Positions 8,452 through 61,710 of a stretch of DNA of 64,000 nucleotides are shown piece by piece. Made by a program: the position numbers and the translations under genes. The stretch spans positions 159,891-223,890 of the forward strand of contig DASVPJ010000044.1 in the NCBI GenBank assembly GCA_036382875.1, in the 5' to 3' direction. The notes beneath the pieces are model-generated. The model made no database searches. It worked only from the letters and a program-made list of their open reading frames with translations, and had not been told where the DNA came from. How positions within the stretch are numbered: position 1 is the first letter of the stretch; every line of letters begins with the position of its first letter. The DNA comes from Mycobacteriales bacterium. GTDB lineage: Bacteria; Actinomycetota; Actinomycetes; BP-191.

Positions 8452-8515
8452 GGGCCACCTCCACGGTCGTCCGGCGGTTCGACTCTAGATCGCCCGCGCG
8501 GGCGGCGGCGTTACG

Positions 8516-9085
8516 GTGTCGCCCATGGACGGTGTCTCTGACCTGATGGCGGCGGTGTACCGCGGCGACGCGGCCGCGCGGGACGCCATCCTCGCGCGGC
8601 GCGCGCCGGCGGACGTGTTCGAGGCGGCGGCGGTCGGCGACGCGGCGCGGCTCGGCGAGCTGCTCGACGGCGACGCGGCGCTGGCCGGCGCCGTCGCGGC
8701 GGACGGGTTCACGCCGCTGCACCTGGCGTCGTTCTTCGGGCACGCCGAGGCGGTGCGAACGTTGCTGGCCCGCGGCGCGGCGCTGGAGACGGTGGCGGAG
8801 AACCCGATGCGGGTCCGCCCGCTGCACAGCGCGGCGGCGAGCGGCGACACCGAGGTGGTCCGGCTGCTGGCCGGGGCGGGCGCGGACGTGAACGCCCGGC
8901 AGGAGGGCGGGTTCGTGCCGCTGCACGCGGTCGCGCAGAACGGCGACGCGGCGGCGGTCGACCTGCTGCTCGCCGCGGGCGCCGACGCGGCGGCGCGCAC
9001 CGACGACGGGCGCTCGGCGGCGGACCTCGCCCGGGAGGCCGGGCACGCCGACCTCGCGGACCGGCTGGCCGGCGCCGCGACCTGA
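8516..9085 (+). CDS. Ankyrin repeat protein
   Basis: Repeated 'G.TPLH.AA..G....V..LL..GA' units (about 4 repeats). No signal peptide. Confidence 0.8.
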   Translation: MSPMDGVSDLMAAVYRGDAAARDAILARRAPADVFEAAAVGDAARLGELLDGDAALAGAVAADGFTPLHLASFFGHAEAVRTLLARGAALETVAENPMRVRPLHSAAASGDTEVVRLLAGAGADVNARQEGGFVPLHAVAQNGDAAAVDLLLAAGADAAARTDDGRSAADLAREAGHADLADRLAGAAT

Positions 9086-9142
9086 CCGAAAACGCCTCCG
9101 GGACCCGCCCCGGCACCCGAGAATCGAGGGAGTCGCGGAGGG

Positions 9143-10453
9143 GTGGGTCAGTTGGTCGAGCGCATCGTGCTGCCGTTCCCGGCCGAACGCCCCGTCGGCG
9201 ACGTGCACCGCTGGGACGACGCGGCCGGCCGGTGGCGCGCGCTCGGCCGCGCGCAGGGCGACGTCGCGGTGGCGGCGGACGCGCGGGTGGCGTTCGTGGC
9301 GGACCGGCGGCGGGCCGCGGGCGGTCTCGGGTTCCTCGACGCGCTGCCGGTGGAGCCGTTCGTACGGCTCGCGGCCGGCGTGGCGTTGCGGGACGGCGAC
9401 GCGCGGCGGCTGGCCCGCTTCGCCTGGCTGTCCGAGCTCGACCTCGACGGCAGCGGCGCGGCCGACGACGACGTCGCGGCGCTGCGCCCGCTCGTCAACC
9501 TCACCGAGCTGCGCCTCGGCGGCGCGCGGGCCGGCGACGACGCGCTGGCGAGCCTGGACTTCCCGCTGCTGCGCCGCCTCGACCTCGACCACTCGCACGT
9601 CGAGCACGGCGTCGCCCACCTGGCCCGGCTGCCGCGCCTGGAGATGCTCGACCTGGCCGCGACGGCGGTGAGCGAGGAGTCGCTGCGCGCGCTGGCCACG
9701 TTGCCGCGGCTGCGCTGGGTGGCGCTCGCGTACGCCGCCGTCCGCCCCGAGGCGCTCGCCGCGCTGGGCGACGTGGCGAACCTCCGCGAGGTGTTCCTCA
9801 ACGGCCTCACCGTCGACGCCACCGTCACCGCCGCCCTCGGCCGTCTGGACGGGCTCCGGCTGCTGGACCTGTCCGGCACGGAGACGTCCAGCCAGGCCGT
9901 CGTGCCGCTGTCCCGGGCGCGCGCGCTCGTCAAGGTGCGACTGTCGGGGACGGCCGTGGACGACCGCGCGCTGCCGTGGCTCGAGCCGGTGCAGACGCTG
10001 GAGTCGCTCTGGCTCGACGACACGGACGTCGGCGAGGGCGCGCCGGAGTCGCTCGCCGCGCTGCGCAACCTGCGCGAGCTCGTGCTCGACGGCACCGCCG
10101 TCCCGGCGGCGGCGCTGGCGGCGCTGGGCGGGCTCCCGCACCTCACCCGCCTCGACCTCGCCCGGACGACGCTGGGCGACGAGGTCGCGCCGGTGCTGCT
10201 CGACCTGCCGCACCTCACCGACCTCGACCTCACCGGGACCGCGCTCACCGACGCCGGCCTCGCCACGCTCGCGCGGCACCCGTCGCTGGCGTCGATCCGG
10301 GTGTCCGGGACGGCCGTCACGCGCCGCGGCATCCGGGGGCTGCTGGACGCGCTGCCCGACGTGACGCTGCCCGACCTCGGCCTCGCGCCGGAGCCGGACG
10401 TGCCCGAGCAGGCGGGTCCCGCCGAGCCGGCGCAGGAACGCTCCCGCCCCTAG
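9143..10453 (+). CDS. Leucine-rich repeat (LRR) protein
   Basis: Many 'L..L..L.L..T.V.D..L..L' repeats. GTG start. Confidence 0.75.
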   Translation: MGQLVERIVLPFPAERPVGDVHRWDDAAGRWRALGRAQGDVAVAADARVAFVADRRRAAGGLGFLDALPVEPFVRLAAGVALRDGDARRLARFAWLSELDLDGSGAADDDVAALRPLVNLTELRLGGARAGDDALASLDFPLLRRLDLDHSHVEHGVAHLARLPRLEMLDLAATAVSEESLRALATLPRLRWVALAYAAVRPEALAALGDVANLREVFLNGLTVDATVTAALGRLDGLRLLDLSGTETSSQAVVPLSRARALVKVRLSGTAVDDRALPWLEPVQTLESLWLDDTDVGEGAPESLAALRNLRELVLDGTAVPAAALAALGGLPHLTRLDLARTTLGDEVAPVLLDLPHLTDLDLTGTALTDAGLATLARHPSLASIRVSGTAVTRRGIRGLLDALPDVTLPDLGLAPEPDVPEQAGPAEPAQERSRP

Positions 10454-11061
10454 GCCACCCGCGACCCCGCCGGCGCCGCCGACCCGGCGGCCGGCCCCGC
10501 CGGCGACCCCGCCGGACGCGGCGCCGGCACCAGCACCGCGACCTCGTTCTCGCGCCGGGTCGCCGGGCACGTCCCGCTCGACGCGAGGAGCTCGGTCAGC
10601 GCGCGGCCGTAGCAGCGGGCGAGCACGCCGGCGTGGTCGCCGAGCTCGTGCCGCCAGGCGTGCATCCGCAACGCACGGAGCCGTTCCGGCCCGCCCTCGC
10701 GCGCGACGCCGGTGAGCCGCGCCAGCGCCGCGTCGACCGCGGCCACCGCCGACACGATCTCCGCCTCGGCCGCCGCGACGTCCGGCCGCGACTCCGGCCA
10801 CGACCCCGCCACCAGCCCGGTCACCTCGGCGAAGCCCGCGGTGAGCGGCAACGACCGCCCGCCCGCGTTCGGCGGGTACACGAACAGGTGCCCGCCCACC
10901 TCCTCCACGTCGGCCGCGGTCACCGCGGCGACCTCGGCGGGCGTCCCGGCGGCGCCGAGCAGCAGCAGCACGTCACGCCGTACGTCCGGCGTCCCGGCCA
11001 GCACGTCCAGCGCGAGGGAGAACCACGCGTCGAGCTCGCGGAGGTGCGCGCAGTCGTTCAT
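10450..11061 (-). CDS. Hypothetical protein
   Basis: ATG at 11061 ('MNDCAHLRELDAW'). High GC3 and no recognisable domain. Confidence 0.5.
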   Translation of the reverse strand: MNDCAHLRELDAWFSLALDVLAGTPDVRRDVLLLLGAAGTPAEVAAVTAADVEEVGGHLFVYPPNAGGRSLPLTAGFAEVTGLVAGSWPESRPDVAAAEAEIVSAVAAVDAALARLTGVAREGGPERLRALRMHAWRHELGDHAGVLARCYGRALTELLASSGTCPATRRENEVAVLVPAPRPAGSPAGPAAGSAAPAGSRVA

Positions 11062-11160
11062 GCCTCCAGGATCGGCGCCGCGCGCAGGCCGTCCGGACAC
11101 CCGTTGGAGCGAGCCCGGACGGTTCAGCCCGCCCGCGCGGCGCGCGTTAGCCCGCTCGGG

Positions 11161-11859
11161 CTACGCCGTCAGCACCGCCACGATCCGCGGGTCGCCCGCC
11201 GCCTCGACCGGCACCGGCCGGCCCCACAGCGCGAGCAGCAGGTCGCTGGCCGGGCCGTGCAGCGACGCCTCCGGGACCCCCGCGGGCACGCCCCGGACGA
11301 GCGACACCGAGTCCGGCCGCAGCGTGCCGAACCACGCGTCGCCGGTGTCGTCGCAGCGCACCGCGAACGTCCCCGCGAGGCCGTCCACCGGCCGCCGCGC
11401 GAGCGAGTACGGCAGGAACAGCGTGAGCGCCTCGTCCACCCCGTCCGCCGCGGCCGCCGCCTCGACCGGCGCGGGCGTCACGTCCCAGCGGTGCACCGCG
11501 ACCTCGTGCGCCATCCGGCGCGCCCACCACGCGACGTCGCCGGGCTCGCCCGACCAGTTCCAGACCGGCGTCTCCGGGGGCTCGTTCGCGAACGCGTCCA
11601 CCAGCTCGGCCGCCGACTCCTCGTACCACGCGACGACGTCGTCGCCGGGCGCGGGCACGCCGCCGAGGTCGACCTCCGCGTCGGCGTGGTCCCGCACGAT
11701 CCGCGCGACCCTGCGGAACCCGTCGCCGACGTGGCCGAGCAGGCGTTCGACGGTCCAGCCGGGACACGACGCCACGTCCGACGCGAGGCAGGTCGCGGCC
11801 GCCTCGGCGAGCGCGGCCGACTCGCGGCGCAGCGCGATTAGGTGCTCCTCGTAGTTCAT
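11161..11859 (-). CDS. Maleylpyruvate isomerase-family mycothiol-dependent enzyme (DinB_2-like, TIGR03083-type)
   Basis: N-terminal 'CPGWTVERLLGHV' is characteristic of the actinobacterial mycothiol-dependent enzyme family. ATGA overlap with the upstream gene. Confidence 0.65.
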   Translation of the reverse strand: MNYEEHLIALRRESAALAEAAATCLASDVASCPGWTVERLLGHVGDGFRRVARIVRDHADAEVDLGGVPAPGDDVVAWYEESAAELVDAFANEPPETPVWNWSGEPGDVAWWARRMAHEVAVHRWDVTPAPVEAAAAADGVDEALTLFLPYSLARRPVDGLAGTFAVRCDDTGDAWFGTLRPDSVSLVRGVPAGVPEASLHGPASDLLLALWGRPVPVEAAGDPRIVAVLTA

Positions 11860-12797
11860 GCGAGCAGCCTCGCGTACGTCGCCCCGTCCATGTTGCCGCC
11901 GGTCGCCACGACCACGACCGACGAGCCGCGCTCGACGCCCGCCGCGCCGGTCAGCAACGCCGCCACCCCGGCCGCCGCGGCCGGCTCCACCGCGAGCTTG
12001 GTGCGTTCGATCGTGCGCCGCATCGCCTCCACGATCGCCTCGTCCGGCACGGTGACCACCCGGTCGACGAACGACCGCACCGCGGCCAGCGTGTGCGTCC
12101 CGGCGAACGGCGCGCACAGCCCGTCCGCGACGCTCGACGGCACCATCGGCACCGGCTCGCCGGCCGCCAGCGCCCGGGTCATCGCGTCCGCGCCCTCCGG
12201 CTCGACGCCGACCACCGTGACCCCCGGCCGCAACGCCTTCAGCACGGCGGCGCAGCCGGAGGCGAGGCCGCCGCCGCCGATCTGCACGACGAGCGTGTCG
12301 AACGCCCCCACGTCCTCCGCGATCTCCAGCCCGACGGTGCCGTTGCCCGCGATGATCGCGGGGTCGTCGAACGGGTGCACCAGCGTGCGCCCGGTCTCCT
12401 CCTGGACGCGGTGCAGCGTGTCCACCAGCGCGCCGTCGGTCAGCACCACCTCGCCGCCGTACGCCTCGACCGCGGCGATCTTCCCGGGGTTCGCGTGTGC
12501 CGGCATGACGACCACGGCCGTGGTGCCGAGCGCGCGGGCGGCGTACGCGAGGCCGGCCGCGTGGTTGCCCGCCGACATCGTGACCAGCCCGGCCGACCGC
12601 CGTTCCGGCGGCATCGACAGCACGGCGTTGAAGCAGCCGCGGACCTTGAACGAGCCGGTCTTCTGGAACAGCTCCGCCTTGACCGTCAGCGACACGCCGG
12701 CGAGGTCGCCCAGCGACGTCGCGGAGAGGCAGGGCGTGCGGTGCACGTACGGCGCGATGCGGGCGGCGGCGGCGCGTACGAGGTCCAGGGTCGGCAT
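11856..12797 (-). CDS. PLP-dependent threonine/serine dehydratase family enzyme
   Basis: Motif 'SFKVRG' (PLP lysine) and Gly-rich 'GGGGL'. Confidence 0.8.
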   Translation of the reverse strand: MPTLDLVRAAAARIAPYVHRTPCLSATSLGDLAGVSLTVKAELFQKTGSFKVRGCFNAVLSMPPERRSAGLVTMSAGNHAAGLAYAARALGTTAVVVMPAHANPGKIAAVEAYGGEVVLTDGALVDTLHRVQEETGRTLVHPFDDPAIIAGNGTVGLEIAEDVGAFDTLVVQIGGGGLASGCAAVLKALRPGVTVVGVEPEGADAMTRALAAGEPVPMVPSSVADGLCAPFAGTHTLAAVRSFVDRVVTVPDEAIVEAMRRTIERTKLAVEPAAAAGVAALLTGAAGVERGSSVVVVATGGNMDGATYARLLA

Positions 12798-12826
12798 GGT
12801 TCCCACCCAACCGTCACAATCGGGCC

Positions 12827-13315
12827 ATGTCGATTTTCGAGCACAAGGCCGAGACGCTCTCCGGCGAGACCGTCTCCATGAACGACTTCGCCGGCAAGGC
12901 GCTGCTGGTCGTCAACGTCGCGTCCCGGTGCGGCCTCACGCCGCAGTACGCCGGCCTCGAGGCGCTGCACGAGGAGTACGCGCCGCGCGGGTTCTCCGTC
13001 GTCGGGTTCCCGTGCAACCAGTTCAAGGGGCAGGAGCCGGGCACCGCCGAGGAGATCCAGGAGTTCTGCTCGACGACGTACGGCGTGACGTTCCCGATGA
13101 TGGCGAAGACCGACGTCAACGGCCCCGACCGGCACCCGGTCTACGCGGAGCTGACGCGCTTCCCCGCCGGCGACGACCGCGGCGACGACGTCATCTGGAA
13201 CTTCGAGAAGTTCCTCGTCTCGCCCCAGGGCGAGGTCGTCGGCCGGTTCCGCCCGCAGGTGCTGCCGGAGGACCCGGCGCTGCGGTCGGCTATCGAGGCG
13301 GTCCTGCCGGCCTGA
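12827..13315 (+). CDS. gpx: Glutathione peroxidase
   Basis: Motif 'VVNVASRCGLTPQY' (catalytic Cys), 'FPCNQF' and 'WNFEKFL'. Confidence 0.9.
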   Translation: MSIFEHKAETLSGETVSMNDFAGKALLVVNVASRCGLTPQYAGLEALHEEYAPRGFSVVGFPCNQFKGQEPGTAEEIQEFCSTTYGVTFPMMAKTDVNGPDRHPVYAELTRFPAGDDRGDDVIWNFEKFLVSPQGEVVGRFRPQVLPEDPALRSAIEAVLPA

Positions 13316-13727
13316 GGTCGAGGTCCGGCGGCGGCGTGTCCGGCGTGCGGTAGACGAGGTACCCCTTGCCGAACGTCGCGTGCCAGTGGTTCACGCGCGC
13401 GACGAGGTGCTCCCACGCCGCCGCGAACGCCGCCGGGTCCTCGTCGTTGACGGCCTGCCGCAGCGGCGCGTAGTCGACCTCGAGGAACTCCTCCATCGCC
13501 TCGGCGTACTTCGGGCGGCTGAACGCGCTGTCCCGCAGCGACTTCGTCAGCGTGCGGCAGAAGTAGCCGGCGGCCGGCCAGTTGCCGTACGTCGCCGCCC
13601 AGTACAGCCGGCGGGCGCGTTCGGCGATCTCCGCCATCAGCCGGTCCATGCCGGGCTGGCTGCGGGCGAGCTCGTTGAGCGTCATCTCCCGCTTGCCGTT
13701 GTGCACGACGATCGCGTCGGCCTCCAC
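13290..13727 (-). CDS. Hypothetical protein
   Basis: High GC3, 145 aa, no recognisable domain. Convergent overlap with gpx. Confidence 0.45.
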   Translation of the reverse strand: MEADAIVVHNGKREMTLNELARSQPGMDRLMAEIAERARRLYWAATYGNWPAAGYFCRTLTKSLRDSAFSRPKYAEAMEEFLEVDYAPLRQAVNDEDPAAFAAAWEHLVARVNHWHATFGKGYLVYRTPDTPPPDLDLRPAGPPR

Positions 13728-13748
13728 GGACGGGAGCCTAGCCAGCGG

Positions 13749-13925
13749 TCAGGGCACCGGGACGCAGAGCGGGATCTCCGGCGTCCACGGGCGGCCGCTC
13801 GCGTAGGTCTCCGGGACCCACACGCAGACCTGCTGGTCCGCCGCGCTCGCCGGCAGGGCGAGCGCGGGCAGCGCGACGGCGGCGGCCACGGCGAGGAGGA
13901 CGGCGCGCTGGGGGTTGCGCGACAC
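13749..13925 (-). CDS. Small secreted peptide (58 aa; ~30-aa mature peptide with 2 Cys)
   Basis: GTG start preceded by an 'aggagtaaggag' RBS. Signal peptide 'AVLLAVAAAVALPALALPASA'. Lies immediately downstream of the ECF sigma fusion gene. Confidence 0.5.
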   Translation of the reverse strand: MSRNPQRAVLLAVAAAVALPALALPASAADQQVCVWVPETYASGRPWTPEIPLCVPVP

Positions 13926-13935
13926 GGACGGCTCC

Positions 13936-14925
13936 TTACTCCTCAGGGTCACAGAGCGGCGAGAACGGGTCGACGCTCAGTATCTCCTGCACGCAGCGCT
14001 GCACGGACTCTTCGAAGGATTCTTCCTCGTACTGCTGCTCCACCCGGACGCCCTCGCGGGTGCCGGCCAGGTTCGGGTCGCCGAGCGGCGGCGTCTCGAC
14101 CTCCGGCTTGTCGGGCGGGGTGACGACCGCGGGCGGCTTCGGCGGGACCACGACCGGGGGCGCGACCGTGCGGACGACCTGCCGCACGGTACCCACCGGG
14201 TCGGCCGCGGGCACCGCCGCGACCGGCGCCGCGCCGTCGCGGACGAGCCCGCCGGCGACCGGCGCGGCGGCCTGCGGGCGCGGCGGGTCGGACGACAGCA
14301 CGATGCCGCCCACGACGCCCGCGACGGTGACGACCGTGACGCCGGCCGCGACCGCGGCGGGCGTGCCGGCGTAGCGGGCCCGGCGGAGCAGGCCGAGCAC
14401 GGCGACGCTCGCGCTCTGCGCGGCGCGGCGCATCCGGTGCCTGGCCTTGGTCAGCGCCGCCTCGGCCGACTTGGTGCCGACGCCGAGGGTGAGCGCGGCC
14501 TCCTTGACGCTCATGCCGTTCGCCCGCGCGAACACCACGGCGAACTCGCGCGGCGACAGCTTCAGGCACTCGTCGTAGAGCCAGCGCGCCTCGGCCAGGT
14601 CGAGCAGCGTGTCGGTCGGGTCGGCCGGGTCGACGGTCCGCAGCGCGTCGCGGACGCCGACGCGGAGCTGGCGCACCCGGTCCCGCTGCACGTCGGCGCA
14701 CAGTCGCACGGTCACCGTCGTCAGGAACTGCCCGACGTACGCCGGGTCGAGGCGCTCGAACGTCACCGCGCGCAGCATCGCCTCCTGCACCACGTCGTCC
14801 ACCTCGTCCTTGCAGCCGAGGCGGCGGGCGGCGATCCGGCGGAGCCGTTCCTCGTGCGGCAGCACGAGCGGCCAGCGGGCGGCGACGTCGTCGGGCAGGG
14901 ACTCCGGTGCGGCGGTGAGCGTCAA
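13936..14925 (-). CDS. ECF sigma factor fused to a C-terminal TM helix and Pro-rich extracytoplasmic tail
   Basis: Sigma-2 region 'DEVDDVVQEAMLRA' and sigma-4 region 'LSPREFAVVFARANGMSVKEAALTLGVGTKSAEAALTKARHRMRR' continue in-frame into a TM helix 'VTVVTVAGVVGGIVL' and a 'PPVVVPPKPPAVVTPPDKPEVETPP' tail. Start is uncertain: ORF opens at 15207, TTG at 14925 or GTG at 14865 are plausible. Confidence 0.6.
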   Translation of the reverse strand: MTLTAAPESLPDDVAARWPLVLPHEERLRRIAARRLGCKDEVDDVVQEAMLRAVTFERLDPAYVGQFLTTVTVRLCADVQRDRVRQLRVGVRDALRTVDPADPTDTLLDLAEARWLYDECLKLSPREFAVVFARANGMSVKEAALTLGVGTKSAEAALTKARHRMRRAAQSASVAVLGLLRRARYAGTPAAVAAGVTVVTVAGVVGGIVLSSDPPRPQAAAPVAGGLVRDGAAPVAAVPAADPVGTVRQVVRTVAPPVVVPPKPPAVVTPPDKPEVETPPLGDPNLAGTREGVRVEQQYEEESFEESVQRCVQEILSVDPFSPLCDPEE

Positions 14926-15353
14926 CGACTCTCCCGGGTCCGTGGGCGGATGGAGCGCGGGTGGCCGATGCTTCGCCGTACGGGGGCGCTGTCCCTGCGT
15001 GGCCCCGAAAAAGTCGTAGGGGCCCCCCGTCCGGGCGCGTAAGACAGGTGCCCGCACGCGGCCGCGCGCCCAGCCCGCCGCGGCCGCGCGGGTGTGGCCC
15101 GGGCGGCGACCCTTCCCAGAAGGTCGCCGTCCGTGCGTCCCCGCCCAGGGGCGCCGGCTCGGTTGCTGGGGGGCGCCGTCCGGACCCTGAGGGGGTTTGG
15201 TGGTCATGGGCGGCCGCGCGCCCAGGAACGCGCGGCTGCCCGTGATCGCGGCCGCCGGGCGCGGCCCCGGCCCGCCGGGCCGCGGTCGCCCTTACCGACA
15301 CGCCACGGCGGCCCTGCGGGTTTTTGTCACACCCCCGTTGCACAGTGGTCCGC

Positions 15354-15623
15354 ATGGACATGACCCGCTGGTGCCGCGGCTGCGCCGCCGAGACGGCGTA
15401 CGTCCGCTTCGACTGCACGGAGCACCCCGAGGACTGCGTCGAGCTCGTCTGCGAGCTGTGCGGCGCCGGGTTCGAGCTGGCCGCGATCCAGGTCGCCGGC
15501 GGCACCGCCGCCGCGGCCGCCGCGGCCGCCGCGGCCGGCACGGCCGGCCCGGGCGCCACCTCGGCCGGCGCGGCCGGCGCCGCCCGCGCCACCGCGCGGA
15601 GGGGAGGGCGCCGCACCGCGTAG
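15354..15623 (+). CDS. Small zinc-ribbon-like protein with poly-Ala C-terminal tail
   Basis: Cys pairs 'CRGC...C...CELC'. GC3 near 100%. Divergent from the sigma gene. Confidence 0.5.
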   Translation: MDMTRWCRGCAAETAYVRFDCTEHPEDCVELVCELCGAGFELAAIQVAGGTAAAAAAAAAAGTAGPGATSAGAAGAARATARRGGRRTA

Positions 15624-15675
15624 CCGCCCACGCCCCCGCCCCAGCCGCGCGCGACGTCGCGCGCGCCGCCGCGGC

Positions 15676-16458
15676 TCAGCGCGGCGCGACCTCGGCCCAC
15701 GCCACGGTCAGCTCGCCGAGCCGCCAGCGCGCCGGGTTGCGCGCCACCCGCCACCCGTCCGCGCCGAGCGCGGCCGCCGCGTCGGCCCACCGCTGCCGGG
15801 CCGGGACGTCGCCCGCCCGCAGCCACGCCCGGTCCCACGCGACGAGGAACGCGTGCACCCGCTCGCCGGTGACGTTGCGGTGGATGAGCGCCTTGGGCAG
15901 GCGTTCGGCCAGGTCGGAGGGCCGCTCCAGCTCCTCGACGCGGGCCGCGAACGTCACCGTCCGCGGCCCGTCCTTGTCGAGCGCGACCCACACCGCGCGC
16001 CGGCCGATCTCGTCGCACGTGCCCTCGACGAGCACGCCGTCGTCGTCGAGCCGCTCGCGCAGCACGTCCCACGCGTGGAGGGCGGACGGCTCGTCGTACT
16101 GGCGGAGGACGTTCATCGCGCGGACCACGACGGGCCGCCGCCCGCCGAGCGGCACGTCGAATCCGCCGTGCACGAACGACAGCCGCTCCCGCGCGTACGG
16201 CGCCGCGGCCTCGACGCGCTCGCGGACGATCTCGACGCCGACCACCTCGACGTCGGGCCGCGCCTCCGCGAGCCGGGCGGCGAGCTCCAGCGTGGTGACC
16301 GGGTGCCGCCCGTAGCCGAGGTCCACGACGAGGGGGTCGGCGGCCCGGCGCAGCCGCGCGCCGTGCAACGCCACCAGCCAGCGGTCGACGCGGCGCAGCC
16401 GGTTCGGGTGGGTGGTGCCGCGCGTCTCCTCGCCGAGCGGCCGGCGCGGCCTGCTCAC
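15676..16458 (-). CDS. Class I SAM-dependent methyltransferase
   Basis: Motifs 'VVDLGYGRHPVTT' and 'VVGVEI'. GTG start overlaps the upstream stop (GTGA). Confidence 0.7.
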   Translation of the reverse strand: MSRPRRPLGEETRGTTHPNRLRRVDRWLVALHGARLRRAADPLVVDLGYGRHPVTTLELAARLAEARPDVEVVGVEIVRERVEAAAPYARERLSFVHGGFDVPLGGRRPVVVRAMNVLRQYDEPSALHAWDVLRERLDDDGVLVEGTCDEIGRRAVWVALDKDGPRTVTFAARVEELERPSDLAERLPKALIHRNVTGERVHAFLVAWDRAWLRAGDVPARQRWADAAAALGADGWRVARNPARWRLGELTVAWAEVAPR

Positions 16459-17546
16459 CCGCGCACCGTCCGCAACGCGGCGGCGAGGCGTTCGAAGTCG
16501 CCGAGGGTGTTGTACGGCGCCGCCGACGCCCGCAGCCAGCCGCGCCCGCGCCACGGCGTCGCGCCGACCTCGACCCGCGCCTCGGCCCACAGCCGGTCGC
16601 GCAGCGCCAGCGCCTCGTCGTACGTCATCACGCCGGGGTCGAGCAGCACCATCGACGCCTGCCGCCCGCGCGGCACGGGCCGGGCGAGCCCGGTCAGCGC
16701 GGCGCCGTCCCAGGCCAGCGCGCGGCCGTGCGCCCGCACCTCGTCCCACCCGAGGTCGTCCATGAACGCCAGCGCGGCCGGCACCGACAGCCACGCCGAC
16801 GGGTCGAACGTCCCCGCCCAGTCGAACTCCGCCTGGAACCCCAGCCCCCACCCGTGCGACGGCACGAGCGGCCGCACCGGCGAGCGGGCGTAGAGGACGG
16901 CGGCGCCCTTCGGCGCGCAGACCCACTTGTGCAGGTTGCCGGTCCACCAGTCCGGGTCGAGCGCGGTGAGGTCCACCGGCAGCAGGCCCGGCGCGTGCGC
17001 GGCGTCGACCAGGCACGGCACGCCGCGCGCGCGGCACCCGCGCACGACCTCCTCGAACGGCATCCGCACCGCCGTCCCCGACGTCACCGCGTCGACCACG
17101 ACCAGCCGCGCACGCTCGTCCACCGCGTCGAGCAGGACGGACGCCGGCGCGTCCGGGTCGAACGCCACCACGTGCACCTGCGCGCCGCGCGCGGCGAGCG
17201 TGTTCGCGACGGCGGGGTAGACGTGGTCGGTGACGACGGCGCGGTCGCCGGGCCGCACCACCGACGCGAGCACGGTGGCGGCGCCGGTGGTGGCGTTCGG
17301 GACGAACACCAGCCGCTCCGGGTCCGCGCCGAGGAACGCCGCCACCTCCGCGCGCGCGGCCGCGACGAGCGGCCAGTAGCGGCGGGCCAGGAAGTCGACC
17401 GGCTGCTCCTCCAGCCGCGCCCGCCAGCGGGCCTGCTCCTCCAGCACCGCGGTCGGCGTCGCGCCGAACGACCCGTGGTTGAGGAACGCCGCCTCCGGGT
17501 CGAGCGGCCACGCCCCGCGCACCCCCGCGCCCAGGCGCGCCGTCAC
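16455..17546 (-). CDS. Aminotransferase class V-fold PLP-dependent enzyme (isopenicillin N epimerase-like family)
   Basis: Motif 'NHGSFGATP'. Lengths ~360 aa. GTGA overlap at both ends. Confidence 0.75.
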   Translation of the reverse strand: MTARLGAGVRGAWPLDPEAAFLNHGSFGATPTAVLEEQARWRARLEEQPVDFLARRYWPLVAAARAEVAAFLGADPERLVFVPNATTGAATVLASVVRPGDRAVVTDHVYPAVANTLAARGAQVHVVAFDPDAPASVLLDAVDERARLVVVDAVTSGTAVRMPFEEVVRGCRARGVPCLVDAAHAPGLLPVDLTALDPDWWTGNLHKWVCAPKGAAVLYARSPVRPLVPSHGWGLGFQAEFDWAGTFDPSAWLSVPAALAFMDDLGWDEVRAHGRALAWDGAALTGLARPVPRGRQASMVLLDPGVMTYDEALALRDRLWAEARVEVGATPWRGRGWLRASAAPYNTLGDFERLAAALRTVRG

Positions 17547-18625
17547 GTGGTGGCGGCGTAGCGCCCGGCCAGGTCGAGGTCGGGCTCGTCGACGTACGCG
17601 ATCGGGTTGGCCGCCTCGCGGTCGAGGTGCCCGCCGGTCGCGGTCGCGGTGAGCATCGCCAGGCCCAGCGTCGTGAGCTCGGCCGAGCGCCGGTGCACGA
17701 CCGGCAGCCCGGTCACCGACGGCAGCACCGCGCGCCACGCGCGGTCCGCCGCGCCGTGCGCGGTGAGGAACGCCGCCTCCGGCGCGAGCGCCCGCACGAC
17801 CCGCGCCACCGCGAACGCGCCCGACTCGTACGCCACCCGCACCGGGTCCTCCCCGGGCCGCGCGACCGCCGCCGACGCGGCGAGCGACTCGCGCGAGCGG
17901 CCGGTCCGCAGCACCAGCCCCTCCAGCGCGTCGACCATGCCGGGCAGCGGTGCCTCGTACACCTGGTACGACCGGCCGCCGGCCCGCAGCGCGACGCCCG
18001 GCGGCGGCTCCGGCGCGGGCGGCGCGACCGGCACGTGCACGACCACCGGCGACCCGAACGTCACCAGCGGCACCACCGCGCCCGACCCCTCGACCGCGCA
18101 CACCTCGCTCGTCGCGCCGACCGCGACCGGCAGCCGCGACCGCAGCCCGAGCCGCCGCGCAGCCGGCAGCATCAGGTCGCCGAGCACGTCGGTCGAGCCC
18201 TGCTGCGGCGCCAGCCGCTCGGCGCGCGGGTCGGCCGCCGTGCCGTCCGGCGCGAAGAACCCGGTCGCGCTCGCGACCGTCGGGTCGGTCGCGAGCCGCC
18301 CGGTGAGCAGCGACGCCACGAAGTCCCGCGCCGACGCGACCCACCCCTCGCCCGGGGTGTCAGGCACTGACGCGAGCACCGGCGTCAACGGCTCGCCCTC
18401 GCGCGAGACCAGCAGCCAGCCCCGGGTGCCCGAGCAGCCGAGCGCCTCCACCTCGACCGGGTCCGCGCCCGCCGCGACGCAGCCGGCGACCGCCGACTCG
18501 ACGGCGTTCCAGACGTCCCGCGCCGACGTGCCGCGGGGCGACCGCGCCACCGCGACGAGCCCGTCCGCCGCCCACACCGCGGCGGTCACGTCGGCGGCGC
18601 CGACGTCGATCGCGAGGTACGTCAC
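17543..18625 (-). CDS. FGGY-like (ASKHA fold) carbohydrate kinase, short form
   Basis: N-terminal 'YLAIDVGAADVTAAV' plus 'ALGCSGTRGW' resemble FGGY N-domain motifs. About 360 aa, shorter than canonical FGGY kinases. Confidence 0.5.
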   Translation of the reverse strand: MTYLAIDVGAADVTAAVWAADGLVAVARSPRGTSARDVWNAVESAVAGCVAAGADPVEVEALGCSGTRGWLLVSREGEPLTPVLASVPDTPGEGWVASARDFVASLLTGRLATDPTVASATGFFAPDGTAADPRAERLAPQQGSTDVLGDLMLPAARRLGLRSRLPVAVGATSEVCAVEGSGAVVPLVTFGSPVVVHVPVAPPAPEPPPGVALRAGGRSYQVYEAPLPGMVDALEGLVLRTGRSRESLAASAAVARPGEDPVRVAYESGAFAVARVVRALAPEAAFLTAHGAADRAWRAVLPSVTGLPVVHRRSAELTTLGLAMLTATATGGHLDREAANPIAYVDEPDLDLAGRYAATT

Positions 18626-25209: not shown

Positions 25210-25288
25210 GCCGGGAAGGTAACGCGCCCGGCGCGTGTTGCCGCCGCTGAAGCACAATGCTGCCCAGACGACGGGGAGAGGCGACCAC

Positions 25289-26566
25289 GTGAGGCACCGC
25301 GACCGGCCGCGCGACCTGCCGCGGCGCGTGGCGACGATCTCGGTCCACACGTCGCCCCTCGACCAGCCGGGCACCGGCGACGCCGGTGGCATGAACGTCT
25401 ACGTGGTCGAGCTCTCCCGCCGCCTCGCCGCGCTCGGCATCGAGGTCGACATCTTCACCCGCACCACCTCGTCAAGCCTGCCGCCGGTCGTCCCGCTCGC
25501 CGACGGCATCACCGTGCGGCACATCACGGCGGGACCGTTCGAGGGCCTGGCCAAGAACGACCTCCCGGCCCAGCTCTGCGCGTTCACGTCCGGCGTGATG
25601 CGCGCCGAGGCGATGCGCGAGCCCGGCTGGTACGACGTCGTCCACTCGCACTACTGGCTCTCCGGCCAGGTGGGCTGGCTGGCCAAGGAGCGCTGGGGCG
25701 TGCCGCTCGTGCACTCGTTCCACACGCTGGCCAAGGTGAAGAACGCCGCCCTCGCCGACGGCGACGAGCCGGAGCCGGCCGCCCGCGTCATCGGTGAGGA
25801 GCAGGTCGTGGACGCCGCCGACCGGCTCGTCGCGTCGACCGGCGACGAGGCCCGCGACCTGATCGAGCTCTACGGCGCCGACCCGGCCCGCGTCGTCACC
25901 GTCGCGCCCGGCGTCGACCTGGAGCGCTACACACCGGGCGACCGCGCCGCGGCACGCCGCGAGGTGGGGCTCGCGGACGGCGACGTGCTGCTGCTGTTCG
26001 TCGGCCGCATCCAGCCGTTGAAGGCGCCGGACGTGCTGATCCGCGCCGCCGCGCTGCTCGCGGAGGACCCGGCGCTGCGGTCCCGGCTGGTCGTCGCGGT
26101 CGTCGGCGGCCCCTCGGGCACCGGCACCCGCGACCCCGAACGCCTCGACGCGCTCGCCCGCGAGCTCGGCATCAGCGACGTCGTGCGCCGCGAGCCGCCG
26201 GTCCCGCCGGACCGGCTCGTCGCCTACTACCGGGCCGCCGAGGCGGTCGTCGTGCCGTCGTACAACGAGTCGTTCGGGCTCGTCGCCCTGGAGGCGCAGG
26301 CGTGCGGCACCCCGGTCGTGGCCGCGTCGGTCGGCGGCCTGCGGACCGCGGTCCGCGACGGCGGCGTCCTCGTCGAGGGCCACGACCCGGCCGACTACGC
26401 GCGGGTGCTGCGCCGGCTGATCGACTCCCCGGCCGAGCGCGACGCGCTGGGCCGCAACGCCGTCGCGCACGCGCAGGCGTTCGGCTGGCACGCCACCGCG
26501 GCCGGCATCCTCGACGTCTACCGCGACGCGCTCGACGCGCCGCGCGCGCTGGCGGTCAACGAGTGA
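25289..26566 (+). CDS. mshA: D-inositol-3-phosphate glycosyltransferase MshA (mycothiol biosynthesis)
   Basis: '[23 protein letters not shown]' and the GT4 C-terminal '[19 protein letters not shown]'. GTG at 25289 with 'ggggagagg' RBS. Confidence 0.9.
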
Positions 26567-27084
26567 GCCTCGACCACGTCATCGGCCGCGACCCGGAGAC
26601 TGTCGCGCGGCTCGATGGCGTGATCCGCGAGGCGCTCGACGGCGTCGGCCTGGAGTACGAGCGGGTCGAGGAGGGCGCGTTCCTCGTCAAGCTCGCCGGG
26701 CAGCACAAGCTCGCCACGATGACCTGGCTCGTCGTCGGCGACCACACGCTGCTGGTCGAGGCGTTCTTCATGCGCAGGCCGGAGTCGAACGACGGCGGGA
26801 CGTACGGCTTCCTGATGCAGCGCAACGCGCGGACGTACGGCGTGCACTTCTCCTGCGACCGGCTCGGCGACGTCTACCTCGTCGGGCACGTGCCGCTGCA
26901 CGCGGTCACGGCGGAGGAGGTGGACCGGCTGCTCGGCTGCGTCCTGGAGTACGCGGACACGACGTTCGACGCGGCGTTGCGGCTCGGGTTCGCCGAGAGC
27001 ATGCGGCGCGAGGAGGAGTGGCGGGCCAAGCAGGCGGCCGAGGGCGGCGCCCCGCTACGCCCGATCTTCGGCGGCGAGCCGTAG
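26563..27084 (+). CDS. YbjN domain protein (conserved downstream of mshA)
   Basis: GTGA overlap with the mshA stop; matches the Rv0487-type partner of mshA. Confidence 0.75.
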
Positions 27085-27142
27085 GGCGCTCCCTCCCCGG
27101 CCGCGTAAAGAGGGTGTCCACCCACTTCCCAGGGAGCCCACG

Positions 27143-27346
27143 ATGACCCGGCGCCTCACCCTCAAGAAGGACTCGCTCGCCCCGCTCACCACCGACGAGC
27201 TCGGCGTCGTCGGCGGCGCCGCGCAGGCGTCCGCCCTGACCTGCTTCACCTGCCTCGGCGACTGCGTCGTGGTCGGCGAGTACAGCGTGATCCTGGTCAC
27301 CGAGTGCTGCTCGGGCCTCCCGACGTTCCCCTGCCCGCGCGGCTAA
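27143..27346 (+). CDS. Cys-rich 67-aa peptide with double-glycine-type leader (candidate RiPP/bacteriocin-like precursor)
   Basis: ATG at 27143 with 'agggagcc' RBS. GC3 near 100%. Leader 'LTTDELGVVGG' fits the double-Gly consensus; the 42-aa core has 6 Cys and many Ser/Thr. Confidence 0.6.
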   Translation: MTRRLTLKKDSLAPLTTDELGVVGGAAQASALTCFTCLGDCVVVGEYSVILVTECCSGLPTFPCPRG

Positions 27347-27831
27347 CGCAGCTCGACCGGTACCCCGCCGGCGATCGTCTGCAGGACGACGCAGTAGCGG
27401 CGGGTGAGCTTCAGCAACGTCTCCCGCGACTCCTCGGGCACGTCCACGTCGAACGTCAGCCGGATCGCCGTGAACCCCACCGGCGCCTCCTTGTCGACGC
27501 CGAGCGTGCCGCGGAAGTCGAGGTCGCCCTCGGCGCGGACGGTGCCGCCGTCGACCGGGATGTCCAGCGACGTCGCGACCGCGCGCAGCGTCACGCCCGC
27601 GCAGGCGACCAGCGCCTGCAGCAGCATGTCGCCGGAGCAGACGGCCGTCCCGTCGCCGCCGGTCGCCGGGTGCAGCCCGGCCTCCGCGAGCGCGCGTCCG
27701 GTCGCGACCGAGCAGGTCACGCCCGCGCCGAGGTCGCCGCTCGCGGTGAGCGTCACGAGCGCGGCCGCCGGGTCCTCGCGGTACCGCTCCTTCAACGGCG
27801 CCTGCGCCGCGCGCAACGTGTCCCTGTCCAC
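27343..27831 (-). CDS. OsmC/Ohr family peroxiredoxin-like protein
   Basis: 'GGDGTAVCSGDMLLQALVACAG' and the C-terminal 'RYCVVLQT' are OsmC motifs. GTG start at 27831. Confidence 0.8.
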   Translation of the reverse strand: MDRDTLRAAQAPLKERYREDPAAALVTLTASGDLGAGVTCSVATGRALAEAGLHPATGGDGTAVCSGDMLLQALVACAGVTLRAVATSLDIPVDGGTVRAEGDLDFRGTLGVDKEAPVGFTAIRLTFDVDVPEESRETLLKLTRRYCVVLQTIAGGVPVELR

Positions 27832-27861
27832 CGCGCGACCGTACCGGTACCCTCCGGCGTC

Positions 27862-28872
27862 ATGGCGGGGGAACGTCCGAGCAAGGCGTCGTTGCGCGAG
27901 GTCAAGCGCGAGTACAAGCAGCGGCAGCGGGCCGCGAAGTGGCGGCCGCGCCGGCGCCGCGCCCTGCGCGCCGTGCCCGCCCCGGGCGCCGCCTCGCGCC
28001 GCGTCCGCGTCCCGCGCCGCGCCCGCGCCCCGCGCGAGCACGGCCGGCTCCGCGGCGCGGTCTCGACTGTGGTCGGGCTGGCGCTCGTCGCCGGGTTCGT
28101 GGTCGCGTACCTGGCGGTCACGGGCGGCGTCCCGCAGCCCCGCCCGCGCGAGGCCGCCGCGGTCCCGAACCTCGTCCCGACGACGCCCCCGAAGCCGGCG
28201 CCGGCGGACCCGTTCGCGGGCTCCAAGGTCGAGCACTGGGCGGTCGGCACGGCCGGGCTCACGGTGCCGGCCGGCAAGGCCACCGGCGGGTTCTCCGCGC
28301 GGCAGGTGCAGGCGGCGTACGCCGCCAGGACCGCGTACCTGCGGGCGGCGATGCTCGACGAGCGGGTGCTGTACCGCCGCGACCTGCGGCCGGTGCTCGC
28401 GACGCTCGACCCGGCCACCAAGGAACGCATGCCGACCCGGCTCGCCAACGTGTTCGGCGACGACGTCAGGCAGTCGCACGCCGGCACCCGGGTCAACGGC
28501 CTGCTCACCCCGCGCGCCGTCGGGAGCGACCTGTACGTCGACTTCAGCTACGTCGCCGTCTACGCGCTGCGCCCGGGCGCCGGCGGCGAAACCGAGCTCG
28601 TCGCGGTGAAGCGGACCGGCTCGACGCTGTTCCGGCGCAAGGGCGGCGGCGTCACGCCCGCGTGGCTCTACCTGTCGGGCTACACGAGCGACCACTCGCG
28701 CTGCGGCTGGAAGTGGCCGGACACCACCGTCGAGGTGTGGCTCGGCCCGGCCGCGTCGGCGCCGCCGTCGGCGTCGTACTCGCCGATGCCCGACCCCAGG
28801 GAGACCGTCAACCTGCTCGACCCGCGCGCGCCGGACCCGAAGGGGTGCTTCGACAACACCGGCGAGCTCTAG
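27862..28872 (+). CDS. Hypothetical single-pass membrane protein
   Basis: ATG at 27862; basic N-terminus, TM 'VVGLALVAGFVVAYLAV', extracytoplasmic C-terminal domain. Confidence 0.6.
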   Translation: MAGERPSKASLREVKREYKQRQRAAKWRPRRRRALRAVPAPGAASRRVRVPRRARAPREHGRLRGAVSTVVGLALVAGFVVAYLAVTGGVPQPRPREAAAVPNLVPTTPPKPAPADPFAGSKVEHWAVGTAGLTVPAGKATGGFSARQVQAAYAARTAYLRAAMLDERVLYRRDLRPVLATLDPATKERMPTRLANVFGDDVRQSHAGTRVNGLLTPRAVGSDLYVDFSYVAVYALRPGAGGETELVAVKRTGSTLFRRKGGGVTPAWLYLSGYTSDHSRCGWKWPDTTVEVWLGPAASAPPSASYSPMPDPRETVNLLDPRAPDPKGCFDNTGEL

Positions 28873-58468: not shown

Positions 58469-58663
58469 CCTAGTGGGGTGGTTACGGCGTACCGGCGCGC
58501 CTAGGGCGCCTGCGGCGCTTTAGTCGGCGCACCGGCACGCCGTACCCACCCCCCAAGCCCGCCCCTCCCACTGCGTCGTACGCCGCCGCGTCGAGCGGCG
58601 GCGGACGACGGCTCGCGCCGCGCGTCACCTTGCGCCCCCCGCTCCCGCCTTCCTCCTGACATG

Positions 58664-58695
58664 CCGAAGGCCCCCGCTTTCGCGGGGGCCTTCGG
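58664..58695 (-). terminator. Intrinsic terminator-like hairpin (ccgaaggcccccgc-tttc-gcgggggccttcgg)
   Basis: 14-bp perfect inverted repeat with a 4-nt loop, ~35 nt downstream of the LAXTG gene stop at 58730. Followed on the plus strand by (ggtgctt)x3. Confidence 0.65.
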
Positions 58696-58729
58696 TGGAG
58701 GTCGGTGCTGTGTGCTTGGTGCTTGGTGC

Positions 58730-60154: not shown

Positions 60155-60401
60155 TCTCCCGACCTCCGAGTTTTGCCGGCCATCCCTGGACCGGCGATGT
60201 CTGTCTGTATGTCAGTACGGGTGGTGTACGACGTAGCCCACAACGACTAGTAGATCGACGGGGTTACGGGCTTCCTTGAAGAAAATTCCCGGGCAAGAGC
60301 GGGCACAGCGGACGAACCGGACACTCCGGACGGGTGAGCGTAGCGTGTCGTGTGACCTACGTCCTGTATCGGACGTTGCGCCGAACGGTTGAGTCGCGGC
60401 G

Positions 60402-61622: not shown

Positions 61623-61710
61623 CGGAGTGCCTCCTTCGGCATCGTCAACGAGGCCGGCGACAGAGGGTTACGGGCCGGTTGGCCCGATTCCTGCGGGTAT
61701 ATACGGAGAG

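What the first reader, a model, noticed from the sequence alone, without database searches (positions are those of the whole stretch)
27143..27346. Orphan Cys-rich peptide gene with a double-glycine-type leader between ybjN and osmC
A 67-codon ORF with near-100% GC3 and an RBS encodes MTRRLTLKKDSLAPLTTDELGVVGG|AAQASALTCFTCLGDCVVVGEYSVILVTECCSGLPTFPCPRG. The segment LTTDELGVVGG fits the double-Gly bacteriocin/class II lanthipeptide leader consensus (L-x3-E-L-x2-V-x-GG). The predicted 42-aa core has 6 Cys plus many Ser/Thr, as in lanthipeptide, ranthipeptide or disulfide-rich bacteriocin precursors. No LanM, radical SAM, C39-peptidase ABC exporter or immunity gene is nearby; neighbours are the housekeeping mshA-ybjN pair and osmC. 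It is either a remotely processed RiPP precursor, a small redox or metal-binding peptide, or an undescribed family. Synteny-core regions are rarely searched for RiPPs, so a gene like this is easily missed by annotation.
Basis: partly seen in the sequence, partly recalled or inferred. Interest (0 to 1): 0.8.

Follow-up and report, generated by a model that had tools for sequence, protein, structure and literature searches.

The report
Stray class I lanthipeptide precursor gene
The small Cys-rich gene is real and is a precursor of a lanthipeptide (a ribosomal peptide cross-linked by thioether rings); its modifying enzymes and exporter lie on another contig of the same genome, so it is a new, mis-annotated member of a known kind rather than a new system.

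Summary
The 67-codon ORF at 27143-27346 (+) is real: GC3 is 0.985, it has a GGGAG ribosome-binding site, and both NCBI and JGI called it, as "hypothetical protein VF519_18640". Its leader belongs to the class I lanthipeptide leader family LxLxKx5L...GG (NCBIfam NF038153, Pfam PF28317). It scores 17.1 bits against a cutoff of 22, which explains the missing annotation. A leader HMM I built from 29 cluster-encoded precursors scores it 31.8 bits; background is at most 6.3 bits.

The 64-kb window holds no RiPP enzyme. The same MAG (tags VF519_084xx, another contig of the same metagenome) encodes LanC, LanB, a C39-peptidase ABC exporter and five precursors with the same leader.

The core is not unique. 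About 35 metagenomic peptides share TC[YF][TS]C...T.CC.G[IL]PTF...C, and the invariant core columns are three Cys, two Thr and one Pro.

In close relatives the same mshA-ybjN-osmC-gpm block holds up to nine such precursors (L090). The nearest GTDB genome (L010) keeps only a 5'-truncated relic.

Best reading: a distal precursor processed in trans. This is a new member of a known kind and of moderate interest. Modification itself is untested.

The parts
27132..27136 (+). Shine-Dalgarno-like GGGAG, 6 nt upstream of the ATG
   Evidence: Read directly from the sequence.
27143..27346 (+). Precursor peptide gene (LanA-type), 67 aa plus TAA. It equals NCBI HEX8004710.1 / VF519_18640, annotated 'hypothetical protein'.
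   Evidence: ORF. GC3 0.985. Exact database match. Called by JGI.
27143..27217 (+). Leader, MTRRLTLKKDSLAPLTTDELGVVGG. It carries the LxLxKx5L motif (L5, L7, K9, L15) and ends in GG. The cleavage site may instead be one residue later (GGA|A, to 27220), which restores the usual hydrophobic register at -4/-7/-12/-15.
   Evidence: NF038153 17.1 bits, cutoff 22. Custom leader HMM 31.8 bits over HMM positions 1-25. Motif from PMC7268733. The same short spacing occurs in P0134.
27218..27343 (+). Core, AAQASALTCFTCLGDCVVVGEYSVILVTECCSGLPTFPCPRG: 6 Cys, 3 Ser, 4 Thr. Member of the TC[YF][TS]C...T.CC.G[IL]PTF...C core subfamily.
   Evidence: phmmer and profile hits share the core. In alignment A3 the invariant core columns are C41, T53, C55, P60, T61 and C64, and C56 is at least 90% conserved.
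26563..27084 (+). Context: ybjN-family gene. It overlaps the mshA stop by 4 nt and lies 58 nt upstream of the peptide gene, so it is the likely upstream member of the same transcript (inferred).
   Evidence: PF10722 85.2 bits. No promoter-like or terminator-like site in 26400-28000.
25235..26566 (+). Context: mshA (mycothiol glycosyltransferase).
   Evidence: TIGR03449 640.8 bits, cutoff 462.5.
27343..27831 (-). Context: convergent osmC-like gene. Its stop codon overlaps the stop codon of the peptide gene.
   Evidence: PF02566 63.2 bits. JGI gene call of 162 aa.

Best explanation
The ORF encodes a class I lanthipeptide precursor (LanA) that lies away from its biosynthetic genes.

Proposed mechanism:
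1. The gene is probably transcribed with, or just downstream of, mshA-ybjN and translated from its own RBS.
2. The N-terminal leader (LxLxKx5L...GG) is recognised in trans by LanB (VF519_08405, by the spacing of the tags; a glutamyl-tRNA-dependent Ser/Thr dehydratase) and by LanC (a cyclase that adds Cys thiols to the dehydro residues). Both are encoded on another contig of the same genome.
3. The C39-peptidase ABC exporter of that cluster then cuts after GG (or GGA) and exports a mature peptide of about 41-42 aa with up to six thioether rings.

The gene is the single intact survivor, in this genome, of an array of fast-evolving precursor genes that a small clade of uncultured Frankiaceae-like actinobacteria carries inside the mshA-ybjN-osmC-gpm block.

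Shown: the gene is real, the leader and core are homologous to the family, the enzymes are in the same MAG, and the synteny holds. Inferred: co-transcription, trans-processing, ring formation, the cleavage site and any bioactivity.
For: - **Coding:** GC3 is 0.985 and there is an RBS.
- **Leader homology:** NF038153 lant_leader_L1a is the only NCBIfam hit (17.1 bits). A custom HMM from 29 cluster-encoded precursors scores 31.8 bits, with background at most 6.3. Relatives that share both leader and core pass the NF038153 cutoff (P0133 27.5 bits, P0138 27.1 bits).
- **What this leader family sits next to:** in L001, L007 and L008, 5 to about 14 such precursors flank LanC, LanB, a conserved protein of about 150 aa and a C39-ABC exporter.
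- **Same genome:** the peptide is VF519_18640. LanB is HEX8002703.1, and its neighbours VF519_08410 to VF519_08435 carry the same locus-tag prefix. Both contigs come from JGI metagenome 3300034687 (contigs _000002 and _000010). GC is 75.2% against 74.5%. Tetranucleotide correlation is 0.994, equal to that between the two halves of the window.
- **Selection on the core:** about 35 peptides at E < 1e-13 share the core. The invariant core columns are Cys, Thr and one Pro.
- **Synteny:** L090 (YbjN 95% identical) carries 9 family precursors in the same block. The closest one is 58% identical to the window peptide, E 8e-18. L094 shows the same block.
- **Literature:** LxLxKx5L...GG leaders with a C39 protease are described for class I LanAs (PMC7268733).
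Against: - There is no expression or mass-spectrometry data.
- The peptide is below the curated NF038153 cutoff.
- Read with GG as the cleavage site, its leader is one residue shorter than the family consensus between EL and VVGG.
- Assigning both contigs to one genome rests on MAG binning.
- The closest GTDB genome has only a truncated relic at this junction, so the site is prone to decay.
- Against its best L090 match the peptide has dN/dS of about 0.6, while flanking genes have 0.14-0.31.
- The five cluster-encoded precursors of the same MAG have different cores, so acceptance of this core by that LanB/LanC pair is assumed.
Confidence: 0.7

Rival explanations
1. A decaying leftover. The gene is an intact-looking but functionally obsolete remnant of a former precursor array, and it is no longer expressed or processed.
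For: L090 has 9 precursors in the block and the window has 1. The sister genome L010 has a copy at this junction that lost its RBS, start codon and about 19 leader codons through a deletion of about 93 nt. The leader scores at the low end of the family (31.8 bits against 35-54 for cluster-encoded members) and is below the NF038153 cutoff. dN/dS is about 0.6.
Against: The reading frame, RBS and GG site are intact. Every invariant core residue of the subfamily is kept (C41, T53, C55, C56, P60, T61, C64). The leader Pro ('LAPLT') and the short spacing recur in other members (P0134, P0138, P0140), so they are subfamily traits rather than damage. High dN/dS is usual for RiPP cores, and the comparison may be between paralogues (dS 0.475 against 0.23-0.33 in the flanking genes).
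Confidence: 0.17
2. A precursor processed by a different machinery, such as a second LanBC, a LanM or another RiPP system elsewhere in the genome, rather than by the VF519_084xx cluster.
For: The rest of the MAG could not be searched. The five precursors beside the VF519 cluster have unrelated cores. A precursor of this leader family (L002-L004) and arrays of this core subfamily (L090, L096, L098) were all found away from any LanBC gene.
Against: The leader matches the leaders beside the VF519 LanBC cluster over its full length (for example LTLKRETLTALTTDDL against LTLKKDSLAPLTTDEL). In all three clusters examined this leader family accompanies LanB, LanC and a C39-ABC exporter.
Confidence: 0.08
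3. An unmodified, disulfide-rich double-glycine bacteriocin or signalling peptide. It would be exported and cleaved by a C39 ABC transporter without lanthionine formation.
For: It has a GG leader and six Cys. Relatives give weak, sub-threshold hits to ComC, Bacteriocin_IIc and bacteriocin_sig.
Against: The window peptide has no hit to any class II bacteriocin model. Conserved Thr residues are paired with conserved Cys. The leader family co-occurs with LanB/LanC in every cluster seen.
Confidence: 0.04
4. A chance ORF in a 75% GC genome, or the shadow of a gene on the opposite strand.
For: High-GC genomes are full of long spurious ORFs. The antisense ORF 27055-27300 shares the wobble phase.
Against: The leader HMM scores 31.8 bits against background of 6.3 or less. 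Homologues with conserved Cys and Thr exist. GC1 > GC2 only on the + strand. An RBS is present.
Confidence: 0.01

Closest known systems
Class I lanthipeptide precursors with LxLxKx5L...GG leaders (NCBIfam NF038153 lant_leader_L1a; Pfam PF28317 Lant_leader_dom; motif described by Walker et al. 2020, PMC7268733)
   Same: The leader motif and its length match, and it ends in GG. The core is rich in Cys, Ser and Thr. The same genome holds LanB, LanC and a C39-peptidase ABC exporter.
   Different: The peptide scores below the curated cutoff (17.1 against 22 bits). It lies on a different contig from the enzymes, inside a housekeeping block. Walker et al. describe the motif for Bacteroidetes, whereas this is an uncultured Frankiaceae-like actinobacterium. 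The core subfamily (..CC.GIPTF..C) has no characterised member that I could find.
Prochlorosins (ProcA/ProcM) of marine picocyanobacteria
   Same: It works alike in outline. Many precursors have conserved leaders and hypervariable cores, several are encoded far from the single modifying machinery, and the leader is removed at a GG site.
   Different: Prochlorosins are class II (bifunctional ProcM) with Nif11-type leaders in cyanobacteria. Here the enzymes are split into LanB and LanC, with a different leader. No homology is implied, and promiscuity of this LanB/LanC pair is untested.
Nisin-type class I lanthipeptides (NisA/NisB/NisC/NisT/NisP)
   Same: The enzyme classes are the same: a full-length LanB with Lant_dehydr_N and Lant_dehydr_C domains, and a LanC.
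   Different: The nisin family uses an FNLD/FxLD leader box, a subtilisin-like LanP protease and a LanT without a C39 domain, and the precursor is clustered with the enzymes. None of this applies here.
Class II double-glycine bacteriocins and ComC-type pheromones
   Same: They also have a GG-type leader that is cut by a C39 ABC transporter.
   Different: The window peptide matches none of their models. The core has conserved Thr/Cys pairs, and the family co-occurs with LanB/LanC.

Membership tests
Class I lanthipeptide precursor, LxLxKx5L...GG leader family (NF038153 / PF28317) | Scores at or above the curated NF038153 cutoff (22 bits) | tested here: not met
   17.1 bits, E 0.0046; it is the only family hit. 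Members sharing leader and core do pass: P0133 27.5 bits, P0138 27.1 bits. Other clear members also fail: P0136 15.6 bits, L090 10186-10383 15.2 bits, and the cluster-encoded L007 precursor 20.1 bits. The cutoff therefore misses true members.
Class I lanthipeptide precursor, LxLxKx5L...GG leader family (NF038153 / PF28317) | Full-length leader homology to precursors encoded beside LanB/LanC | tested here: met
   An HMM of 29 cluster-encoded leaders (window peptide excluded) scores 31.8 bits, E 5e-8, over HMM positions 1-25. The next non-family segment scores 6.3 bits or less.
Class I lanthipeptide precursor, LxLxKx5L...GG leader family (NF038153 / PF28317) | LxLxKx5L motif and a GG (or GA/AG) leader end | tested here: met
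   The motif is L5-T-L7-K-K9-DSLAP-L15, followed by ...VVGG25. The motif definition is from PMC7268733.
Class I lanthipeptide precursor, LxLxKx5L...GG leader family (NF038153 / PF28317) | LanB dehydratase and LanC cyclase encoded in the same genome | tested here: met
   In L007, LanC (PF05147) is at 8763-10004 and LanB (PF04738 + PF14028, 1027 aa) at 10001-13084. The locus-tag prefix VF519 and the metagenome are the same as for the window peptide. Caveat: this depends on MAG binning.
Class I lanthipeptide precursor, LxLxKx5L...GG leader family (NF038153 / PF28317) | C39-peptidase ABC exporter available for GG cleavage | tested here: met
   L007 13538-15703 carries PF03412 + PF00664 + PF00005. 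Its best NCBIfam match is the NHLP-type peptidase/permease/ATPase (613.7 bits, below the equivalog cutoff).
Class I lanthipeptide precursor, LxLxKx5L...GG leader family (NF038153 / PF28317) | Precursor encoded within or next to the biosynthetic cluster | tested here: not met
   No LanB, LanC or C39 domain was found in the 64-kb window. The enzymes are on another contig.
Class I lanthipeptide precursor, LxLxKx5L...GG leader family (NF038153 / PF28317) | Ser/Thr dehydration and (methyl)lanthionine rings in the product | not testable with these tools
   This needs mass spectrometry of the native or heterologously produced peptide. The sequence only shows that 7 Ser/Thr and 6 Cys are available.
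Class II lanthipeptide (LanM-modified) | LanM synthetase nearby or in the genome | tested here: inconclusive
   No LanC-like domain was found anywhere in the window. The rest of the genome could not be searched. The leader family is associated with LanB/LanC in all three clusters seen.
Unmodified class II double-glycine bacteriocin / ComC | Match to Bacteriocin_IIc, ComC, TIGR01847 or TIGR03949 models | tested here: not met
   The window peptide has no hit at E <= 1 (NCBIfam) or E <= 10 (Pfam).
Ranthipeptide or other radical-SAM RiPP | Radical SAM maturase nearby; match to a precursor model such as TIGR04149 | tested here: not met
   No radical SAM domain was found among the window's gene calls. 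The window peptide does not hit TIGR04149. Some relatives hit it weakly, through the GG leader only.

The most novel reading that the evidence does not exclude
Uncultured soil Frankiaceae-like actinobacteria run a class I (LanB/LanC) counterpart of the prochlorosin system. One LanBC plus C39-exporter set would service many hypervariable precursors. Much of that repertoire sits not in the cluster but in arrays embedded in conserved housekeeping loci: mshA-ybjN-osmC-gpm, and a second site between a PBP gene and CAP-domain genes. Those arrays expand, shrink and decay between close relatives. The ..TC[YF][TS]C...T.CC.G[IL]PTF..C core would then be a new, uncharacterised lanthipeptide scaffold.
Probability: 0.45. 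Interest if true: 0.55.

Novelty: new member of a known kind. Interest (0 to 1): 0.4.

Why it matters
- **Annotation and mining.** The gene is a true RiPP precursor that NCBI's pipeline left as "hypothetical" because it falls 5 bits below a curated cutoff. Cluster-centred genome mining (antiSMASH- or RODEO-style neighbourhoods) would also miss it, because the enzymes are on another contig.
- **Dispersed class I precursors.** In this clade the precursor repertoire is partly dispersed into housekeeping synteny blocks and turns over quickly: 9 genes, 1 gene or a relic at the same junction in genomes whose YbjN is about 95% identical. If one LanB/LanC pair really processes all of them, this is a natural, substrate-tolerant class I system. 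Such systems are well documented for class II (ProcM) and would be useful for peptide engineering.
- **An uncharacterised core.** The core subfamily has no characterised member that I could find in the literature searched.

Tried and rejected
- Pfam on the peptide gave nothing. The local Pfam copy apparently lacks PF28317, or the peptide is below its threshold.
- The first word-indexed homologue search found only 2 weak relatives. The exhaustive phmmer search was needed to find the core family. Two of its top hits, P0131 and P0132, are long repetitive proteins that match 'LTPDELEVA'-like repeats; I rejected them as irrelevant.
- tblastn of the peptide against 80 ybjN-anchored loci from GTDB species representatives found no intact homologue. 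The source MAG itself is not among those representatives.
- The sigma-70 promoter and intrinsic-terminator scan of 26400-28000 found nothing, which is uninformative in a 75% GC actinobacterium.
- I tried to read the source contig beyond the window's 3' end by anchoring a metagenome scan on the PBP gene. The source contig is not in that collection; the best match was 79% identical. Contig look-ups were exhausted by then.
- GC3 alone was rejected as proof of strand, because the antisense ORF shares the wobble phase.
- I considered a functional link to mycothiol, since the precursor is beside mshA and the enzymes are beside mshC. The L001 and L008 clusters are not near mshC, so I treat this as probable coincidence.
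- Structure prediction was not attempted. It is not meaningful for an unmodified RiPP precursor.

Full report
**1. Observation**

The ORF is exactly as described: 27143-27346 on the + strand, ATG to TAA, 67 codons, translating to MTRRLTLKKDSLAPLTTDELGVVGGAAQASALTCFTCLGDCVVVGEYSVILVTECCSGLPTFPCPRG. The window has 75% GC, so long spurious ORFs occur in every frame and the ORF alone proves nothing.

GC by codon position is 0.618 / 0.544 / 0.985, the same signature as the flanking genes; the 58-nt spacer upstream lacks it. An antisense ORF (27055-27300) shares the wobble phase, so GC3 cannot assign the strand. The GC1 > GC2 order and the homology described below do assign it. A GGGAG sits 6 nt before the ATG, which is the first start codon in the frame.

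The neighbours are MshA (TIGR03449, 640.8 bits), a YbjN-family protein (PF10722) and a convergent OsmC-like protein (PF02566). The OsmC stop codon overlaps the peptide's stop codon.

**2. What the peptide is**

The only curated family hit is NCBIfam NF038153, lant_leader_L1a ("class I lanthipeptide"). It covers residues 3-25 and scores 17.1 bits, below the 22-bit cutoff. The identical protein is in NCBI as [quoted passage not shown], on a 309-kb contig.

Two weak relatives (P0002, P0003) share the leader MRKLTLKKDTL.ELTTDEL..VVGG and carry Pfam PF28317, Lant_leader_dom. P0002 lies in a Frankiaceae MAG within a row of nine such peptides (a tenth lies beyond LanC). The row is followed by a C39-peptidase ABC transporter, a 148-aa protein, LanB (Lant_dehydr_N + Lant_dehydr_C) and LanC.

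I built a leader HMM from 29 precursors of three such clusters plus P0003, excluding the window peptide. It scores the window leader at 31.8 bits (E 5e-8) across all 25 match states. No unrelated six-frame segment among 11,937 exceeds 6.3 bits.

The leader also fits the LxLxKx5L...GG motif (L5, L7, K9, L15). Walker et al. 2020 reported this motif for class I LanAs that come with C39 proteases (PMC7268733).

**3. Where the enzymes are**

The window has none. tblastn with LanB, LanC and a C39-ABC exporter gave only a generic ABC-ATPase match at 37.5 kb. Pfam listings for +-10 kb and for my own gene calls over the rest of the window show no LanB, LanC, LanM, radical SAM or C39 domain.

A search with the L001 LanB returned P0034, "lantibiotic dehydratase [Mycobacteriales bacterium]". 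It lies on contig _000010 of the same JGI metagenome (3300034687) that holds the window contig _000002. The genes there are:

| Gene | L007 coordinates |
|---|---|
| LanC | 8763-10004 |
| LanB | 10001-13084 |
| 154-aa protein | 13081-13545 |
| C39-ABC exporter | 13538-15703 |
| five precursors | 15824-16676 and 17999-18208 |

The precursors carry the same leader, for example MRNRSLTLKRETLTALTTDDLTAVVGG.

An exact look-up shows these proteins carry locus tags VF519_08410 to VF519_08435, so they are in the same NCBI MAG as VF519_18640. GC (74.5% against 75.2%) and tetranucleotide profile agree; r = 0.994, identical to the value between the two window halves. The one caveat is that "same genome" rests on binning.

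**4. The core is a conserved subfamily**

Exhaustive phmmer found nine small peptides that align over leader and core. A profile search raised this to about 35 peptides at E < 1e-13. All come from metagenomes or Frankiaceae MAGs, and NCBI annotates one of them (P0161) as a class I lanthipeptide.

The shared pattern is TC[YF][TS]C-x(2,3)-C ... T-x-CC-x-G-[IL]-PTF-x(1-6)-C. In a 12-sequence alignment the invariant core columns are C41, T53, C55, P60, T61 and C64, and C56 is at least 90% conserved. These are mostly the residue types needed for methyllanthionine rings.

Two oddities of the window leader recur in other members (P0134, P0138, P0140): the Pro in LAPLT, and a spacer one residue shorter between EL and VVGG. 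They are therefore subfamily traits. If cleavage follows GGA rather than GG, the canonical hydrophobic register at -4/-7/-12/-15 is restored (inference).

**5. Conservation at the junction**

Among 80 ybjN-anchored loci from GTDB species representatives, none has an intact homologue.

- **L010**, the closest genome (YbjN 95%, OsmC 92%), has only 150 nt between ybjN and osmC. Those 150 nt encode ...RELLGVAGG|SVTAYTCACQSLRECLLAPTLPDRACVPDITFRVICR*. This is a family precursor whose RBS, start codon and first ~19 leader codons were removed by a deletion of about 93 nt. It is 51% identical (E 2e-15) to an intact precursor in L098.
- **L090**, a metagenomic contig with YbjN 95% and MshA 92% identical, has the same gene order from the S15 peptidase to gpm. 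It carries nine family precursors interleaved with ybjN, DUF2277, osmC and the GDSL lipase, and no LanB or LanC within 10 kb. One of them (10186-10383) is the window peptide's closest relative: 58% identity, E 8e-18.
- **L094** repeats the pattern, with an IS481 transposase next to ybjN.

The junction therefore held a precursor array ancestrally, and the window genome keeps one intact gene of it. The peptide evolves much faster than its neighbours. Its dN is 0.28 and its dN/dS about 0.6, against dN 0.03-0.15 and dN/dS 0.14-0.31 for the flanking genes. This is expected for RiPP cores, but it is also compatible with relaxed selection or with comparing paralogues.

**6. A second dispersed site**

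In the L010 genome (assembly GCA_035940575) and in L098, intact precursors of the same core subfamily sit between a PBP (transglycosylase) gene and CAP-domain genes. Upstream of them is the order HAD, 474-aa protein, DUF5667, ECF sigma. The window's last 6.5 kb shows the same HAD, unknown protein, DUF5667, ECF sigma, PBP order and ends inside the PBP gene. More precursors could lie just outside the window. I could not read that region.

**7. Mechanism and comparison**

The best-supported model is a distal class I LanA processed in trans by the VF519_084xx LanB/LanC pair, then cleaved and exported by the C39-ABC transporter.

- It is a member of the known LxLxKx5L...GG class I leader family by homology, although it fails the curated score cutoff and the clustering criterion.
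- It works like the prochlorosin system (many dispersed, hypervariable precursors and one machinery) without being related to it.
- It differs from nisin-type systems, which have an FxLD leader, a LanP protease and a clustered precursor.

Rivals are a non-functional leftover, processing by another machinery, an unmodified GG-bacteriocin, and a chance ORF; the last is effectively excluded.

**8. Verdict**

This is a new, mis-annotated member of a known kind. It adds a modestly interesting point about precursor arrays embedded in housekeeping synteny blocks. Interest is 0.4.

Noticed in passing
L010 3530-3670 (closest GTDB relative, Frankiaceae MAG SMAG_U6499): The ybjN-osmC spacer holds a 5'-truncated lanthipeptide precursor relic (ELLGVAGG|SVTAYTCAC...ITFRVICR*). 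It has a different core type from the window peptide. A deletion of about 93 nt removed the RBS, the start codon and the N-terminal part of the leader.
   Followed up: yes
L090 9724-12697 (ENA ERZ1758341, 262-kb contig); also L091 and L094: Nine precursor genes of the same leader family are interleaved with ybjN, DUF2277, osmC and the GDSL lipase in a genome whose YbjN is 95% identical to the window's. There is no LanB or LanC within 10 kb. In L094 an IS481 transposase sits between ybjN and DUF2277.
   Followed up: yes
window 57566-64000; compare L096/L097 1-11145 and L098: The window's 3' end has the gene order HAD hydrolase, unknown protein (~470-490 aa), DUF5667, ECF sigma, PBP (transglycosylase). 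In two relatives this order is followed directly by 2-4 precursors of the same core subfamily and then by CAP-domain genes. The window ends inside the PBP gene, so further precursors may lie just beyond it.
   Followed up: partly
L007 8763-18208 (same MAG, contig _000010): The LanC-LanB-C39-ABC cluster is wedged next to mshC (TIGR03447, 586 bits), with precursors on both sides of mshC. The distal precursor in the window lies next to mshA. Both loci touch mycothiol biosynthesis genes. The L001 and L008 clusters are not near mshC, so this is probably coincidence.
   Followed up: partly
L007 13081-13545; L001 11640-12086; L008 13102-13572: A protein of about 150 aa is conserved between LanB and the C39-ABC exporter in all three clusters. 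It has one predicted hydrophobic helix. The L007 copy has no Pfam or NCBIfam hit. It could be an exporter accessory or immunity protein.
   Followed up: partly
window 27862-28869 (+): A 336-aa protein with no Pfam hit lies between osmC and the GDSL lipase. It is also present in L010 and L011 (46-51% identity). It occupies the position where L090 has four precursor genes.
   Followed up: no
window 8489-10453 (+): Adjacent ankyrin-repeat (198 aa) and leucine-rich-repeat (455 aa) proteins. This is an unusual pair for an actinobacterium.
   Followed up: no
L002-L004 (P0003): Another solitary precursor of the same leader family lies next to a PadR regulator and a Kelch/beta-propeller protein, again with no LanB or LanC within 10 kb. 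Stand-alone precursors of this family are therefore not rare.
   Followed up: partly
L008 5425-8698 and 15833-17341: One LanBC/C39-ABC cluster is flanked by about 14 precursor genes with the same leader and very diverse cores, several carrying a PTLP/PTWP motif. A fatty-acid-hydroxylase-family gene lies among them. This suggests a broadly substrate-tolerant class I system.
   Followed up: no
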